Positions 28,098-33,318 of a stretch of 64,000 bases of DNA are shown one piece after another. Under the pieces are notes generated by a model. It was given only the letters and a program-made list of their open reading frames with translations, searched no databases and was not told the DNA's origin. Origin of the DNA: the human T2T-CHM13v2.0 reference genome, Homo sapiens; NCBI RefSeq assembly GCF_009914755.1, contig NC_060935.1; one strand, given 5' to 3'. The position numbers were made by a program, and so were the translations under genes. Within the stretch, counting starts at the first letter, position 1. Each line of letters starts with the position of its first letter.

Positions 28098-31000
28098 TTT
28101 GCTTGTCTGGATCTTTAGCATTTCCATATGAATTTATGTATCAGCTTGTCAATTTCTGAAGTAAAACCAGCAAGGATTTTGATAGGGATTACTGCTGATT
28201 CATTTTGGTTCTTTTGTATTTAATAAGTTGTTTTTCTCTTGCTGTTTCCAGTATTTTCTCTTTGGCTTGTAACAGTTTGACTATGATGTGTTGAAGTGTG
28301 AATGTCTTTCAGTTTATACCACTTGGCATTCATTGAGCAGCTTGGATGTATAGGTTTTTTTTTTTTTCTTTTTTTGAGATGGAGTCTTGCCCTGTGGCCC
28401 AGACTGGAGTGCAGTGGCATGATCTCGGCTCATTGCAACCTCCGCCTCCTGGATTCAAGTGATGCTTGTGCCTCAGCCTCCTGAGTAGCTGGGATTATGG
28501 GCACCCACCACCACTCCTGGCTAACTTTTTGTATTTTTAGTAGAGACGGGGTTTCTCCATGTTGGCCAGGCTGGTCTTGAACTCCTGACCCGAACTGATC
28601 TGCCCACCTCAGCCTCCCAAAGTGCTGGGACTACAGGCATGAGCCACTGCACCCGGCTTGGATGTATAATGTTTTTCTATTTGGGAAGTTTCAGCTGTTA
28701 CTTCTTTGAATAATTTTCTGCTCCTCTCCCTTCCTTCTGGTCCTACCATACATGCATATATATGTTGGTGTGTTTAACGGTATCCCATAAGTTTGAGGCT
28801 GTTTTTTCTTTTTTAAAATAGTTCATAGATTATCAAAAGTTCTTTTTGTATGGCATTGAGATTTATTTATATATTTAACTGCATGCATATCTTTAGCTTT
28901 CACATAAATTTTGCTTCATACAGGCTATTGGTATAAGCATTTCCTCTTTTAAGAGTTTGATTCTTTAAAAAAAATACCAAATCCAAAATTCAGAAATGGT
29001 AGTCCGGCGCTACAAGGAAGCACACTGAAAATAACAAGCTGATGATACATTATCACATTGTACAATAGTATTTTATATTTTCTTACACACTTTCCAGTAA
29101 GTTTTTTCACATCCTGAAATGTCACGGTGTCATTTTTGAAAGGAGAGCTGTGGAGAGATTCTGATATGACTCAGAGTTGTGAAGGCACCTGGTGGAGCTC
29201 CTTCATTAATTTCTCTAACCGTTCAGGGCACTGAAGTCTGTGGGGACAGTAAGTTCACATTTACTGTTTGTGTTAAGTGAATCCCCAACCTACTTTGATT
29301 TGCACTAAAACGCCTCTACCCTCAAAGTACCGCGTCATTAAGGTTATATGATAACAAATTAGGAAAAACAAATTAAGCATCACTTGCTTGGCAACATTAA
29401 CTGGCCCACCACACTCCCACCACAGATTTTAGAAGTGTACATTAGCAAAAGATGCTTCTCTATGCATTATGGCAGAAGTCTATTAAAGAATATTTAATTT
29501 ATTGACTAATATTTCTAATAAGCACATTCAGAGGATACTCTTTCTACGTTTTATATACTGGCTGTCTGCCATTAACAGCAGTAAAAATAAGGAAAAATAA
29601 AAAAATCTCAATCTCAAATGATTTAACAGCTTAGTTCTGTATTTGCTTGACAGTGTATGCAGTTATAGTACACACTATCAAATATATCTTCCATATCTAT
29701 TTAGAAAACTTATTCTGATATTAGAACCATGTGAAGAAAGTCTTCTCCATTATTTTAGTGAGTCTGTTAAAATGGTCCACTAAGAACCATCTTCAAAATT
29801 TCAGGTGCTTCAAAAGTTAAGAGAAACAATTAACTTCATTACTCTAATACAAAACAAAAACAAAAACAAAAACTGACAACTTTAAATTAGTATTAAGCTA
29901 CCAAAAATTGATACCACTCAGGAAAGATTTTTTCCCCCCCGAATGATAATTTTATTTATTTTTTTGAGACAGAGTCTCTGTCTGTCACCCAGGCTGGAGT
30001 GCAGTGATGCAATATCGGCTCACTGCAATCTCCGCCTCCCAGGTTCAAGCAATTCTCATGCCTCAGCTTCCCAAGTAGCTGGGATTACAGGCATGTGCCA
30101 CCATGCCCAGCTAATTTTTGTATTTTTAGTACAGATGGGGTTTTACCATGTTAGGCTGGTCTTGAACTCCTGGCATCAAATGATCTGCCTGCCTTGGCCT
30201 CCCAAGGTGCTGGGATTATAGGCGTGAGCCACCGCGTGGCACTGAATGATAATATTTAGCTAAAATTTTAGTGAAAGAAAAGGCAATTCTGAGAGCAATC
30301 TGGGTAGAGAGGGGTTTCTCAGGCGTAGGTACTAATTCCCATGCAGGACTGCCTTCAGATGCAGCTCCCGTGTCTCCACAGTCCTCAAGGCCTGGTTTTG
30401 GTGGTTCTGTAGTAAAGGCTTCACACATGTGTAATATGTATAGGTAGCATCACTACAAAATGGAGTGCAAGTTCAAATCAGAGTTTTAAGGTCAGGAAAA
30501 GTAAGTATCATTTAAATGAATCACCAGAGACACTTTTAGAAGTTCTTAAGTTCCTTTAGAAATCTCCCTTTCAAGGATGTGCCAATTTTTATTTTGGCAA
30601 ATCATGGATAAAAACTAAATGTATTAATAGTTATGATGATTGTGGTGCTATTTTTTAAACATTACTAACTTTATAGCAATACTCACATTTACCTATTTAC
30701 CTAGCACACTTTTTTTTTTTTTTGAGATGGAGTCTTGGTCTGTTGCCCAGGCTGGAGTGCAGTGGCGTGATCTCGGCTCACTGCCACCTCCACCTCCCGG
30801 GTTCAAGCAATTCTCCTGCCTCAGCCTCCCAAGTAGCTGGAATTACAGGCGTGCACTACCACGCCCAGCTAATTTTTGTATTTTTAGTAGAGACGGGGTT
30901 TCACCATGATGGCCAGTCTGGTCTCAAACTCCTAACCCCAAGAGATCCGCTCACTTCAGCCTCCCAAAGTGCTGGGATTACAGGCGTGAGCCACAGCGCC

Positions 31001-33194
31001 TGGCCACATTTCAACAGTGTTTTATTTTCAGTAACTGACCTACTGCAGTCTATTTTCAGACTTTTAGTTTATATATGATATTTTATTATGCTGATATGAA
31101 TGTGAAATTTTAAAAATTAAAACAAGCAATTAGTAAGGGTTTCTTATTTATGTTAAATATTAATTTATCTTACCTAAGTGCATAATTTTGTCCATGTAGT
31201 GGTAGAATTGTAAAACTAAACTTTAGAAGTTTTTTTTTTTTTTTTTGAGAGAGGGTTTTGCTCTGTTGCTCAGGCTGGAGTGCAGTGGCGCAAACTTGGC
31301 TCACTGCAACCTCCGCCTCCTGGGTTCAAGTGATTCTCGTGCCTCAGCTTCCCAAGTAGCTGGGATTGCAGGCGCACACCATCATGCCCAGTTAATTCTT
31401 GTATTTTCAGTAGAGCTGGAGTTTTGCCATGTTGCCCAGGCTGGTCTTGAACTCCTGGCCTCAAGTGATCTACCCACCTTGACCTCCCGAAGTGCTGGGA
31501 TTACAGACGTGAACCGCCACGCCTGCATACAGATCTTATTTCAGTTACAAAAACACACTGTTGACATTATTTTAATATAGCATTTTAGTTTATTACTGTG
31601 GAAATGTGGAGCACAAGACATGACAAATACTAGGTATTAATTTCAAAACTGTTCAGAATGAGGCTGGGCGTGGTGGTTCACACCTGTAATCCCAGAACTT
31701 TGGGAGGCTGAGGCGGGAGGATTGCTTGAGCCCAGGAGTTCAAGACCAGCCTGGGCAAAATGGTGAAACCCTGTCTCTATTAAAAAAAAAAAAAAAAAAA
31801 ATTTTTTCCAAAAGAACAAAAATCTACCCAGAATGGCTTATGAAGGTTTGTAATTGTTGATTTAAGAGTATTTAGGATTTTTTTTTTTTTTTTACAAATT
31901 AAAAAGTTCCAGTAACTATTTACATGAACTAAATGACCAAATGGAAGTGGAAAATGGAAAATTTAGAGGGCAGTACGGTAAGGGAGGGGATGTAAAATAA
32001 TACAGGAAGATAACCTAAACAATTGAAGATCAAAGATTTAGGAAAAGTTTAACCTTTTCTTCAAATCTATAGTCATTTACCTAGAAAATGCGGTTGGGTA
32101 CCCTGGGACACAGCTGAGTTACTTGCTCTGTTTTCAGTTTACCAATTAAAACAGGTCACATTCTCTGTTCCAGACCCAGGGCCTGGCAGAGGTCCCCCAA
32201 TCCCCTTGAGTTTCAGTGGCAGTTGACGAACCTCTTAAGGCCCAGGATGACTAACCGAGGTTCTTCACTTGACAGCTTTATGTATGAGGAAACTTAAAGA
32301 CATTTCTACCATACTTCTCTCCATCTCAGGTATTAGAATGAATGCTTACCATTTAAAATAGTGGTATGATCAGACTGTTTCAGTATCACTTTTTACCATC
32401 AATGGATATTAAACAGGGAACAGAAGCTCTAACTTTTACATTAATGGAAATATTACCTGTTTAGAAAACACTGTTTCAGAGGACAAAAGATGTCATCTTC
32501 ATATCTTTTTAAAGTGTCTAATTTCTACTATTTGAGTACTTAAATCTGCCATAAAAAATATGGATTTACAAAAAAGACAAATTAGAAATTATGTCCTTCA
32601 CAGAGATCCACTACAGGATTCTGAATCTTAAATTGTCTTCATATGTTTAGGATAGAATTTGATGCATTTATTATTTTTAAAGTATGAGTTATTACATAAA
32701 GCTAAGTTAAAAGTTCAACCAAATGGAAAAGGTACCAACAAATGCCTAAAATACTATTCTAATCATCTAAAACAAGAACAAATAGATTTTTCAAATAAGA
32801 GTTGAATCAATATTTATTTTAGACACTTCATTTACTTGAAAGCTGCTACTTTATTACTTAAAGACTGAGCCTGTAAGAAAATAAAAGAGGTTTAATTCAA
32901 ATAATATGAAAGTGAACTCTTTACCTTACCTGTTTTTCCCCAAATAATTTTGACTTCATTAATGGAAATTTATGTGAATGGCTCTAAAAACCACCTATTT
33001 TGAAACTGCAGAAATAGCAGGACAATCACTTTGTAGAATGATTTGTGAAATATTGTCCTACTACACTTAAAAAAAAAACCCAACACATTTCCTCACTTAC
33101 GAGTATTTTCTTATTTTTGATATTGCAAATTCTATACATAGAACACCTCTTCATTGTCCTGCTGAAACCCTCAGAATGTAGAGGTGGTTCAAAA

Positions 33195-33318
33195 GTAATT
33201 TATACCATTTTTACCCAGGCTTTGTAAACATGTATCAAAGAGATAGCAAGGTATTCAGTTTTAGTAAACAAAATAATTGCTCCTATAGTAGCTCCTCAAA
33301 GTCCCAGGCAAGTAGGCA
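33195..33318 (-). pseudogene. Copy of the pri-miR-30a 3' flank, without the hairpin
   Basis: Minus strand reads TGCCTACTTGCCTGGGACTTTGAGGAGCTACTATAGGAGCAATTATTTTGTTTACTAAAACTGAATACCTTGCTATCTCTTTGATACA..., near-identical to the recalled miR-30 shRNA backbone 3' arm. Confidence 0.8.

What the first reader, a model, noticed from the sequence alone, without database searches (positions are those of the whole stretch)
28802..33318. Apparent retrocopy of the Drosha 3' cleavage product of pri-miR-30a inside an LDHAL6A intron
Seen: the minus strand from 33318 reads TGCCTACTTGCCTGGGACTTTGAGGAGCTACTATAGGAGCAATTATTTTGTTTACTAAAACTGAATACCTTGCTATCTCTTTGATACATGTTTACAAAGCCTGGGTAAAAATGGTATAAATTA. Recalled knowledge: the human miR-30a 3' flank used in shRNA-mir vectors is TGCCTACTGCCTCGGACTTCAAGGGGCTACTTTAGGAGCAATTATCTTGTTTACTAAAACTGAATACCTTGCTATCTCTTTGATACATTTTTACAAAGC..., and its first T follows miR-30a-3p (...TTTGCAGC), the Drosha 3' cut. 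Here homology stops at that base: the adjacent sequence is old L1 and there is no hairpin. Downstream runs ~4.5 kb of non-repeat sequence (plus Alus), ending near a minus-strand AATAAA (28862-28867) and an A-rich tail (28802-28814), with L1M on both sides. Inference: L1 machinery reverse-transcribed an uncapped Microprocessor by-product, leaving a genomic fossil of a Drosha cut and of a pri-miR-30a 3' end. Only ~125 nt is recognised directly. The full extent is inferred, and I found no clean TSD.
Basis: partly seen in the sequence, partly recalled or inferred. Interest (0 to 1): 0.87.

Follow-up and report, generated by a model that had tools for sequence, protein, structure and literature searches.

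The report
Retrocopy of pri-miR-30a's Drosha 3' fragment
An intron of LDHAL6A holds an old, decayed copy of the RNA piece that lies downstream of the miR-30a hairpin, and the copy starts exactly where the enzyme Drosha cuts that RNA, so it looks like a fossil of a microRNA-processing by-product that was copied back into DNA.

Summary
Window 33318→28846 (minus strand) is a colinear, unspliced copy of chr6 72584047→72580108 (T2T). Aligned bases are about 87% identical (K2P 0.147). Four later Alus interrupt the copy. The chr6 locus carries the mir-30 hairpin. Likeness begins at the first base after the 3p arm and ends 16-18 nt after an AATAAA that both copies share. Neither the hairpin nor its upstream sequence occurs anywhere on chr11.

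The core reading is supported: an RNA-templated copy of the Drosha 3' cleavage product.

Three details need correcting:
- The supposed A-rich tail (28802-28814) is the start of an L1 ORF1 fragment, not a poly(A) tail.
- There is no target-site duplication.
- Both flanks belong to one host L1M. It has lost about 310-370 nt of ORF2 exactly where the copy plus a 0.3-kb internal L1 ORF1 piece now sit.

This anatomy fits a non-classical, break-repair or template-switch L1 reverse-transcriptase event better than standard target-primed insertion. That part is inference.

In the papers I could search, the closest precedent is Pan & Lin 2020, who proposed Drosha-made 5' ends for mir-373 retrocopies. 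I found no report of a downstream by-product copy.

Verdict: a real feature and a new variant of a known kind. Interest is moderate to high.

The parts
28846..33318 (-). Copy of the pri-miR-30a 3' Drosha fragment. It is 4473 nt now and about 3.47 kb without the later Alus. The parent is chr6 72584047→72580108 (3940 nt, including its own Alu).
   Evidence: Six colinear blocks. Genome-wide only chr6 and chr11 carry the non-Alu sequence. Over 3245 aligned nt, identity is 0.868 and K2P 0.147, with 66 gap events.
33296..33318 (-). 5' end of the copy: the 3' strand of the pri-miR-30a basal stem, starting at the base after the 3p arm. In the parent a CNNC motif sits at +17; in the copy it is mutated.
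   Evidence: Junction alignment, Rfam alignment, fold. The CNNC distance rule of 16-18 nt comes from passages read in PMC9905709.
28862..28867 (-). AATAAA shared with the parent. Likeness to chr6 ends 16 nt after it in the copy and 18 nt after it in the parent.
28815..28845 (-). 31-nt A/T-rich filler of unassigned origin. It is not a convincing poly(A) tail.
   Evidence: Composition A12 C3 G3 T13. It is not like the parent's downstream sequence: 995 of 1000 shuffles scored as well. It is not placed upstream of the ORF1 anchor in any of 8 L1 paralogues.
28206..28814 (-). Internal L1 ORF1 fragment (about ORF1p aa 133-247), in the same orientation as the copy. It carries a later Alu at 28357-28658.
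   Evidence: 11 L1 paralogue hits. nhmmer E 1.9e-23. tblastn to ORF1p aa 183-243. Colinear continuation across the Alu.
33319..34074 (-). Host L1M, ORF2 reverse-transcriptase region (L1 ruler about 3683-4125). It is interrupted by an Alu (33437-33716) and a (TCTG)n/(TACC)n microsatellite (33401-33436).
   Evidence: blastn E 3e-15 to a young L1 ruler. tblastn to ORF2p aa 565-593 and 629-684. The 82-nt flank 33400-33319 maps directly after the anchor in 10 of 29 L1 ORF2 paralogues, and 4 of those align to its last base.
28097..28205 (-). Host L1M resumes here (L1 ruler about 4456-4560). About 310-370 nt of ORF2 is missing between this point and 33319.
   Evidence: Score 50 against a shuffle mean of 19.7 versus L021. 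It maps +332..+536 after the anchor in 15 of 29 paralogues.
25892..27650 (-). Rest of the host L1M, down to its 3' end: 27650-27579 is L1 4571-4643 and 26246-25892 is L1 5681-6029. It includes later Alus.
31662..31801 (+). Partial Alu inserted into the copy after its arrival, in the opposite orientation.
31241..31523 (-). Alu inserted into the copy.
30713..31004 (-). Alu inserted into the copy.
29954..30242 (-). Alu inserted into the copy.

Best explanation
Window 33318-28846 (minus strand) is a reverse-transcribed copy of the RNA left downstream when Drosha/DGCR8 cut the miR-30a hairpin out of its primary transcript on chr6.

The template began at the 5'-monophosphate base made by the 3' Drosha cut. 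It ended about 18 nt after an AATAAA 3.9 kb downstream, probably at a cleavage/polyadenylation site.

An L1 reverse transcriptase copied it to its very 5' end. The cDNA was then joined into an older L1M in what is now an LDHAL6A intron, antisense to the gene.

The inferred route is non-classical:
1. A break in the host L1 ORF2 primed on an internal ORF1 stretch of an L1 RNA.
2. After about 0.35 kb the enzyme switched to the 3' end of the pri-miR-30a fragment.
3. It ran off at the Drosha-made end.
4. The product was ligated back, with about 310-370 nt of host DNA lost and no target-site duplication.

Alus landed in the copy later, and one short antisense stretch became an alternative LDHAL6A exon.

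What is shown: the homology, both end points, the missing hairpin and the flank anatomy. What is inferred: the RNA template, the single-event route and the age (tens of millions of years).
For: Homology and its uniqueness:
- There is one extra genomic copy, colinear with chr6 and unspliced.

5' end:
- The copy starts at T of TGCCTAC, directly after ...GCAGC of the hairpin's 3' arm.
- That position gives the 2-nt 3' overhang relative to the 5p arm in the fold.
- It also puts the parent's CNNC at +17. The published distance is 16-18 nt from the 3' Drosha cut (passages of PMC9905709).
- The host L1 sequence runs up to the junction base: 4 of the 10 concordant paralogues align to 33319.
- The hairpin plus 2.96 kb upstream matches only itself, plus two weak hairpin-only matches on C8 and C1 that I take (not checked) to be other mir-30 hairpins; there is no match on chr11.

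3' end:
- Likeness ends 16/18 nt after an AATAAA present in both copies.

Against a stall:
- The basal stem stays paired for at least 13 bp in the first 17 nt below the cut. A stall at the stem base would fall further 3'.

Reverse-transcriptase context:
- A same-strand L1 ORF1 cDNA-like fragment lies directly 3' of the copy.
- There is no TSD, about 310-370 nt of target is lost, and there is filler.
- These are the hallmarks listed for non-classical L1 insertions in passages of PMC1920257.

Precedent:
- Pan & Lin 2020 propose Drosha-made 5' ends for mir-373 retrocopies (PMC7692494, section 13 read).
Against: - No poly(A) tail survives. Only a 31-nt A/T-rich filler remains.
- The AATAAA argument is weak on its own. 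The 3.9-kb parent has 9 AATAAA, and 4.8% of positions (7.6% counting ATTAAA as well) lie 10-35 nt after such a hexamer.
- There is no intron in the parent stretch, so splicing cannot prove an RNA intermediate.
- With no TSD and host DNA missing at the junction, a later deletion that trimmed a longer copy cannot be excluded from the anatomy alone.
- The mature miR-30a ends are recalled from miRBase, not given by a tool. The cut site rests on that recall plus fold geometry and the CNNC rule.
- The single scores of the 82-nt 5' flank against L1 are not above shuffles. Its assignment rests on positional concordance (10 of 29). One ORF1-region paralogue (L009/L021) gave a rival alignment that scored well (27 against a shuffle mean of 16).
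- By recall, Drosha 3' products are normally degraded by XRN2, so the prior for such a template is low.
- No orthologous empty site could be checked, because no other mammalian genomes are held.
- The one other locus tested, the mir-30c-2 3' flank, has no such copy.
Confidence: 0.75

Rival explanations
1. The copy is an ordinary 5'-truncated retrocopy of an uncut pri-miR-30a or host lncRNA. The reverse transcriptase fell off, or was stopped by the hairpin, and the end lies at the Drosha site by chance.
For: 5' truncation is the rule for L1-made copies (introduction passages of PMC1920257). The hairpin is very stable: -53.8 kcal/mol, z -4.4.
Against: An exact hit on one given base has a chance of about 1 in 4000 or less, given at least 3.9 kb of copied template (my estimate). 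The stem is paired for at least 13 bp below the cut, so a structural block should act at the stem base, 17 nt or more downstream of the observed end. An uncut hairpin has no discontinuity at the cut position.
Confidence: 0.1
2. A longer retrocopy that included the hairpin was inserted, and a later genomic deletion removed its 5' part, the TSD and about 330 nt of host L1.
For: Host L1 sequence is missing at the junction and there is no TSD.
Against: A deletion end would have to fall on the exact Drosha base by chance. This reading also does not explain the L1 ORF1 piece at the other end. The missing host segment lies between 33319 and 28205, so it spans the whole insert rather than only its 5' side.
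Confidence: 0.08
3. The segment arose as a DNA-level duplication, or by capture of a chr6 DNA fragment during break repair, with no RNA intermediate.
For: There is no poly(A) tail, no TSD and no removed intron to prove an RNA step.
Against: Both ends sit at RNA-processing landmarks: the Drosha cut, and 16-18 nt after a shared AATAAA. The fragment lies next to a same-strand L1 cDNA-like piece. Only this one 3.9-kb stretch was copied.
Confidence: 0.04

Closest known systems
MicroRNA retrocopies (Pan & Lin 2020, Sci Rep, PMC7692494; abstract, passages and section 13 read)
   Same: These are L1-made copies of microRNA gene transcripts. For the mir-373 copies the authors propose that the template's 5' end was made by Drosha.
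   Different: Their copies contain the hairpin (the pre-miRNA or a host exon) and carry poly(A) tails and TSDs. The copy here lacks the hairpin, is the 3.9-kb downstream by-product, and has neither a tail nor a TSD. mir-30a does not appear in their text (0 occurrences). Their supplements were not read.
Non-classical (endonuclease-independent) L1 insertions, NCLI (Sen et al. 2007, NAR, PMC1920257; passages read)
   Same: Shared features are an L1 piece lacking its 3' end, no TSD, loss of target DNA (18 of their 21 loci), extra non-L1 DNA joined to the L1 piece (15 of 21), and junction microhomology.
   Different: Their extra DNA is 4-312 bp, whereas here it is about 3.5 kb and of identified RNA origin. 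Their loci are young and were checked against empty sites in chimpanzee and macaque. Here the locus is old and no empty site could be examined.
Chimeric retrogenes / U6-L1 chimeras made by template switching (search listing and abstract starts only: PMC4476161 and bioRxiv 10.1101/2025.02.02.635956; mechanism recalled from Buzdin et al.)
   Same: The 5' partner RNA is copied to its true 5' end after the enzyme switches from an L1 RNA. The two parts lie on the same strand and are joined head to tail.
   Different: Classical chimeras have a 3' L1 part that reaches the L1 poly(A), and they carry TSDs. Here the L1 part is an internal ORF1 piece and there is no TSD. The 2025 preprint's main text has no mention of Drosha, miRNA or MIR30.
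Processed pseudogenes / lncRNA retrocopies
   Same: They are trans-mobilised Pol II transcripts that end near a poly(A) signal.
   Different: Their templates are capped and usually spliced RNAs. Here the template is an unspliced, presumably uncapped RNase III product.

Membership tests
L1-mediated retrocopy (classical TPRT) | Colinear copy of a transcript from a distant parent locus | tested here: met
L1-mediated retrocopy (classical TPRT) | 3' poly(A) tail | tested here: not met
   Only a 31-nt A/T-rich filler remains. The proposed tail is L1 ORF1 sequence.
L1-mediated retrocopy (classical TPRT) | Target-site duplication | tested here: not met
   The flanks map to host L1 positions about 310-370 nt apart. 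This is a loss, not a duplication.
L1-mediated retrocopy (classical TPRT) | Loss of introns | not testable with these tools
   The parent stretch is colinear with genomic DNA, and no intron annotation for the chr6 locus was available.
Non-classical L1 insertion (NCLI) | L1 piece truncated at its 3' end, with no L1 poly(A) | tested here: met
   The ORF1 fragment ends near 28206 and abuts host ORF2.
Non-classical L1 insertion (NCLI) | No TSD, with target-site deletion | tested here: met
   The caveat is that this is inferred from L1 paralogues, not from an empty orthologous site.
Non-classical L1 insertion (NCLI) | Empty ancestral site in an outgroup whose boundaries match the insert | not testable with these tools
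   No other mammalian genome is held.
Non-classical L1 insertion (NCLI) | Microhomology at the junctions | tested here: inconclusive
   About 10-15 nt around 28212-28190 can be aligned to both ORF1 and ORF2 paralogues. The match is imperfect and was not tested against chance.
Drosha 3' cleavage product as template | 5' end at the 3' Drosha cut of the hairpin | tested here: met
   The CNNC sits at +17 (rule from PMC9905709). The mature ends themselves are recalled.
Drosha 3' cleavage product as template | Hairpin and 5' flank absent from the copy and its surroundings | tested here: met

The most novel reading that the evidence does not exclude
Uncapped by-products of nuclear RNA processing, here the downstream Microprocessor fragment, can survive long enough in the germ line to be copied by L1 reverse transcriptase, possibly while it patches DNA breaks. 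If so, genomes hold a scattered 'paleo-degradome': retrocopies whose 5' ends record endonuclease cuts (Drosha and perhaps others) made tens of millions of years ago. Such a record could be mined to map ancient cleavage sites and pri-miRNA 3' ends.
Probability: 0.3. Interest if true: 0.78.

Novelty: new variant of a known kind. Interest (0 to 1): 0.62.

Why it matters
The copy gives base-exact, in vivo evidence in the germ line for a Drosha cut at pri-miR-30a. It also points to a transcript end about 3.9 kb downstream at the time of insertion.

It shows that a 5'-monophosphate Microprocessor by-product, normally seen as quickly degraded, can serve as a template for L1 reverse transcriptase. It adds an identified 3.5-kb cellular RNA to the 'extra DNA' seen at non-classical L1 insertions.

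It suggests a simple genome-wide screen: look for paralogous segments that begin at annotated Drosha 3' cuts. Hairpin-based searches such as Pan & Lin's cannot find these.

Locally, the copy has supplied an alternative LDHAL6A exon.

Tried and rejected
- **TSD candidates.** 'AGAAAACTGCTAA' (5' flank) and 'AGAAAAAACAGCCTCAA' (3' side) look alike, and a longer candidate also came up. I rejected both. The first is explained by L1 ORF2 and the second by L1 ORF1.
- **Flanks as one contiguous L1 ORF1 region.** One paralogue gave a good score (L009/L021: 27 against shuffle means of 11.7-16). The other paralogues tested did not, and the ORF2 placement is positionally concordant in 10 of 29.
- **Small profile of 6 L1 paralogue pieces.** It found the 3' flank but not the 5' flank.
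- **Pfam scan of translated flank pieces.** The call failed because the frames contain stops. I mapped the flanks instead by blastn and tblastn against a young L1 from the same genome, used as a ruler.
- **Extending the parent-copy likeness past 28846.** Not significant.
- **Assigning the 31-nt filler to L1.** 0 of 8 paralogues placed it there.
- **Generality.** The mir-30c-2 3' flank has no second copy. The first query was swamped by repeats. The clean 1.78-kb query gave only self plus a short interspersed repeat, with 40 of 53 candidates scored.
- **Literature.** 'Microprocessor' with 'retrocopies' gave 0 papers. 'pri-miR-30a' with 'polyadenylation' gave 9 listed papers; going by titles and abstract starts only, none appeared to be about the transcript's 3' end.
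Full report
**1. Observation**

The AATAAA is at 28867-28862.

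Searching the window's own genome with 33330-32900 gave one other place, C6:72583614-72584047 (79% identity, E 1e-96). The match begins at query base 13, which is window 33318. Rfam finds a mir-30 hairpin at that place (RF00131, 75.9 bits; gathering score 50.2). Its last six model positions, UGCCUA, are the first six bases of the shared stretch. By its sequence this is miR-30a; the name and the mature ends are recalled, not given by a tool. No mir-30 hit occurs in window 28000-34500, even at E ≤ 1.

**2. Extent**

BLAST of window 36000-26000 against 30 kb of chr6 (three fetched loci) gives six colinear non-Alu blocks from 33318 to 28846. They match chr6 72584047 down to 72580108.

- The copy is broken by four Alus that chr6 lacks: 31801-31662 (opposite strand), 31523-31241, 31004-30713 and 30242-29954.
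- chr6 has its own Alu at 72582052-72582354, in the other orientation relative to the nearby window Alu.
- Over 3245 aligned bases, identity is 0.868 and K2P 0.147 (0.137 without CpG), with 66 gap events.
- If both copies drift neutrally, this suggests roughly 35-70 million years, and more if the parent is constrained. The rates are recalled, so this is a rough inference.
- Genome-wide, the non-Alu part of the 3.9-kb parent hits only chr6 and this window (40 of 6121 candidates were scored, so this is a lower bound).
- The 2.96 kb that holds the hairpin and its upstream flank hits itself, two short repeats within the same chr6 stretch, and two weak hairpin-only matches on C8 and C1. I take those two to be other mir-30 hairpins, but I did not check them. 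Nothing hits chr11.

**3. The two ends**

*5' end.* The window reads ...CTGCTAA|TGCCTACTTGCC and chr6 reads ...TTTGCAGC|TGCCTACTGCC.

- In the fold of the chr6 hairpin, the base before the bar lies two bases 3' of the one that pairs with the first base of the 5p arm. That is the 2-nt overhang expected of an RNase III cut.
- The parent's CTTC sits at +17 from the bar. Passages of PMC9905709 place CNNC about 16-18 nt from the 3' Drosha cut and call pri-miR-30a a CNNC substrate.
- The stem stays paired for at least 13 bp within the first 17 nt below the cut. A reverse transcriptase blocked by the hairpin of an uncut RNA should therefore stop further 3' than the observed end.

*3' end.* Both copies carry AATAAA. 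Likeness stops 16 nt after it in the copy and 18 nt after it in the parent. On its own this is weak evidence. The parent stretch has 9 AATAAA, and 4.8% of positions (7.6% counting ATTAAA as well) lie 10-35 nt after such a hexamer. Extension of the likeness beyond 28846 is not significant.

**4. Flanks**

The 3' side from 28814 is L1 ORF1:
- 11 paralogue hits, 6 of which begin at 28814 or 28813.
- nhmmer E 1.9e-23.
- tblastn to ORF1p aa 183-243.

Between it and the copy lie 31 unassigned A/T-rich bases.

I used a young full-length L1 from the same genome as a ruler. On that ruler:
- 34074-33736 is L1 3683-4042, in ORF2 (ORF2p aa 565-684).
- 27650-27579 is L1 4571-4643.
- 26246-25892 is L1 5681-6029, the 3' end.

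The 82 bases 33400-33319 give weak single scores. However, their best local hit falls directly after the expected continuation in 10 of 29 L1 ORF2 paralogues, where about 1 would be expected by chance, and 4 of those reach the last base. The piece 28205-28097 maps about 385-530 nt after the same anchor in 15 of 29 paralogues and matches L021 strongly (score 50 against 19.7).

So one host L1M runs on the minus strand from at least 34074 to 25892. It lacks about 310-370 nt between ruler positions of roughly 4125 and 4456. In that gap sit the pri-miR-30a copy, the filler and an internal L1 ORF1 piece of about 0.3 kb, all on the same strand. There is no TSD. One paralogue (L009/L021) offered a rival ORF1-region placement for the 5' flank. 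The other paralogues tested did not support it above their shuffles.

**5. Mechanism**

*The template (confidence about 0.75).* Both ends of the copied stretch lie at RNA-processing landmarks. The hairpin is absent, and a reverse-transcribed L1 piece adjoins the copy. The simplest template is the downstream Microprocessor product, ending near a poly(A) site.

*The route (confidence about 0.5).* This part is inferred. The features present are a 3'-truncated L1 piece, no TSD, target loss, filler, and a possible 10-15-nt imperfect overlap at the ORF1/ORF2 junction. These are the hallmarks that Sen et al. list for non-classical, endonuclease-independent L1 insertions (passages of PMC1920257). The head-to-tail order (cellular RNA 5', L1 3') is that of template-switch chimeras (listing; mechanism recalled).

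I therefore propose this sequence:
1. A break in the host L1 primed on L1 RNA.
2. The enzyme switched to the 3' end of the pri-miR-30a fragment.
3. It ran off at the Drosha-made end.
4. The product was joined back into the host L1.

Nested separate events plus deletions remain possible.

**6. Rivals**

- Chance truncation or a stall: an exact hit has a chance of about 1 in 4000 or less, and the stem geometry argues against a stall.
- A later deletion: this needs the same coincidence.
- DNA-level capture: this does not explain either end.

**7. Known or new**

Pan & Lin 2020 (PMC7692494; abstract, passages and section 13 read) describe what they say are the first microRNA retrocopies. They suggest Drosha made the 5' end of the mir-373 templates. 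Their copies contain the hairpin and carry tails and TSDs, and mir-30a is not mentioned. Their supplements were not read.

Other literature checks:
- Searches for Drosha + retrocopy + pri-miRNA (2 papers) and for Drosha cleavage + processed pseudogene + retrotransposition (1 paper) gave nothing else relevant.
- Microprocessor + retrocopies gave 0 papers.
- The 2025 preprint on L1 recombination with diverse RNAs does not mention Drosha or miRNA in its main text.
- RefSeq, as given by the hub, annotates nothing here.

I therefore rate this a new variant of a known kind. This holds for the library I could search; most subscription journals are missing from it.

**8. Generality**

I tested one other locus. 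The 1.78-kb 3' flank of mir-30c-2 (located by Rfam) has no second copy in the genome. This says little either way.

**9. Verdict**

The feature is real and the core interpretation is supported. The insertion details are corrected as above. Interest is 0.62.

Noticed in passing
window 32276-32329 (+): The alternative LDHAL6A exon listed by the hub lies inside the pri-miR-30a copy, antisense to it. It is flanked by AG and GT. It is therefore an exon recruited from the inserted sequence.
   Followed up: partly
window 33401-33436 (-): A (TCTG)n/(TACC)n microsatellite sits where the A-tail of the Alu at 33437-33716 would be, just upstream of the last 82 nt of host L1.
   Followed up: no
chr6 72582012-72582427 (L003) and window 31662-31801: Parent and copy each acquired an Alu independently, in opposite relative orientation, within about 100 nt of the same homologous position, next to a simple repeat in the parent. 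This may be a local insertion hot spot.
   Followed up: no
window 25892-26246 (-): The 3' end of the host L1M lies within a few bases of the donor splice site of the LDHAL6A exon 25712-25885.
   Followed up: no
window 27960-28100: A/T-rich simple repeats give many weak Rfam miRNA-family hits below threshold (mir-297, mir-466 and others). They look like chance matches to low-complexity sequence.
   Followed up: no
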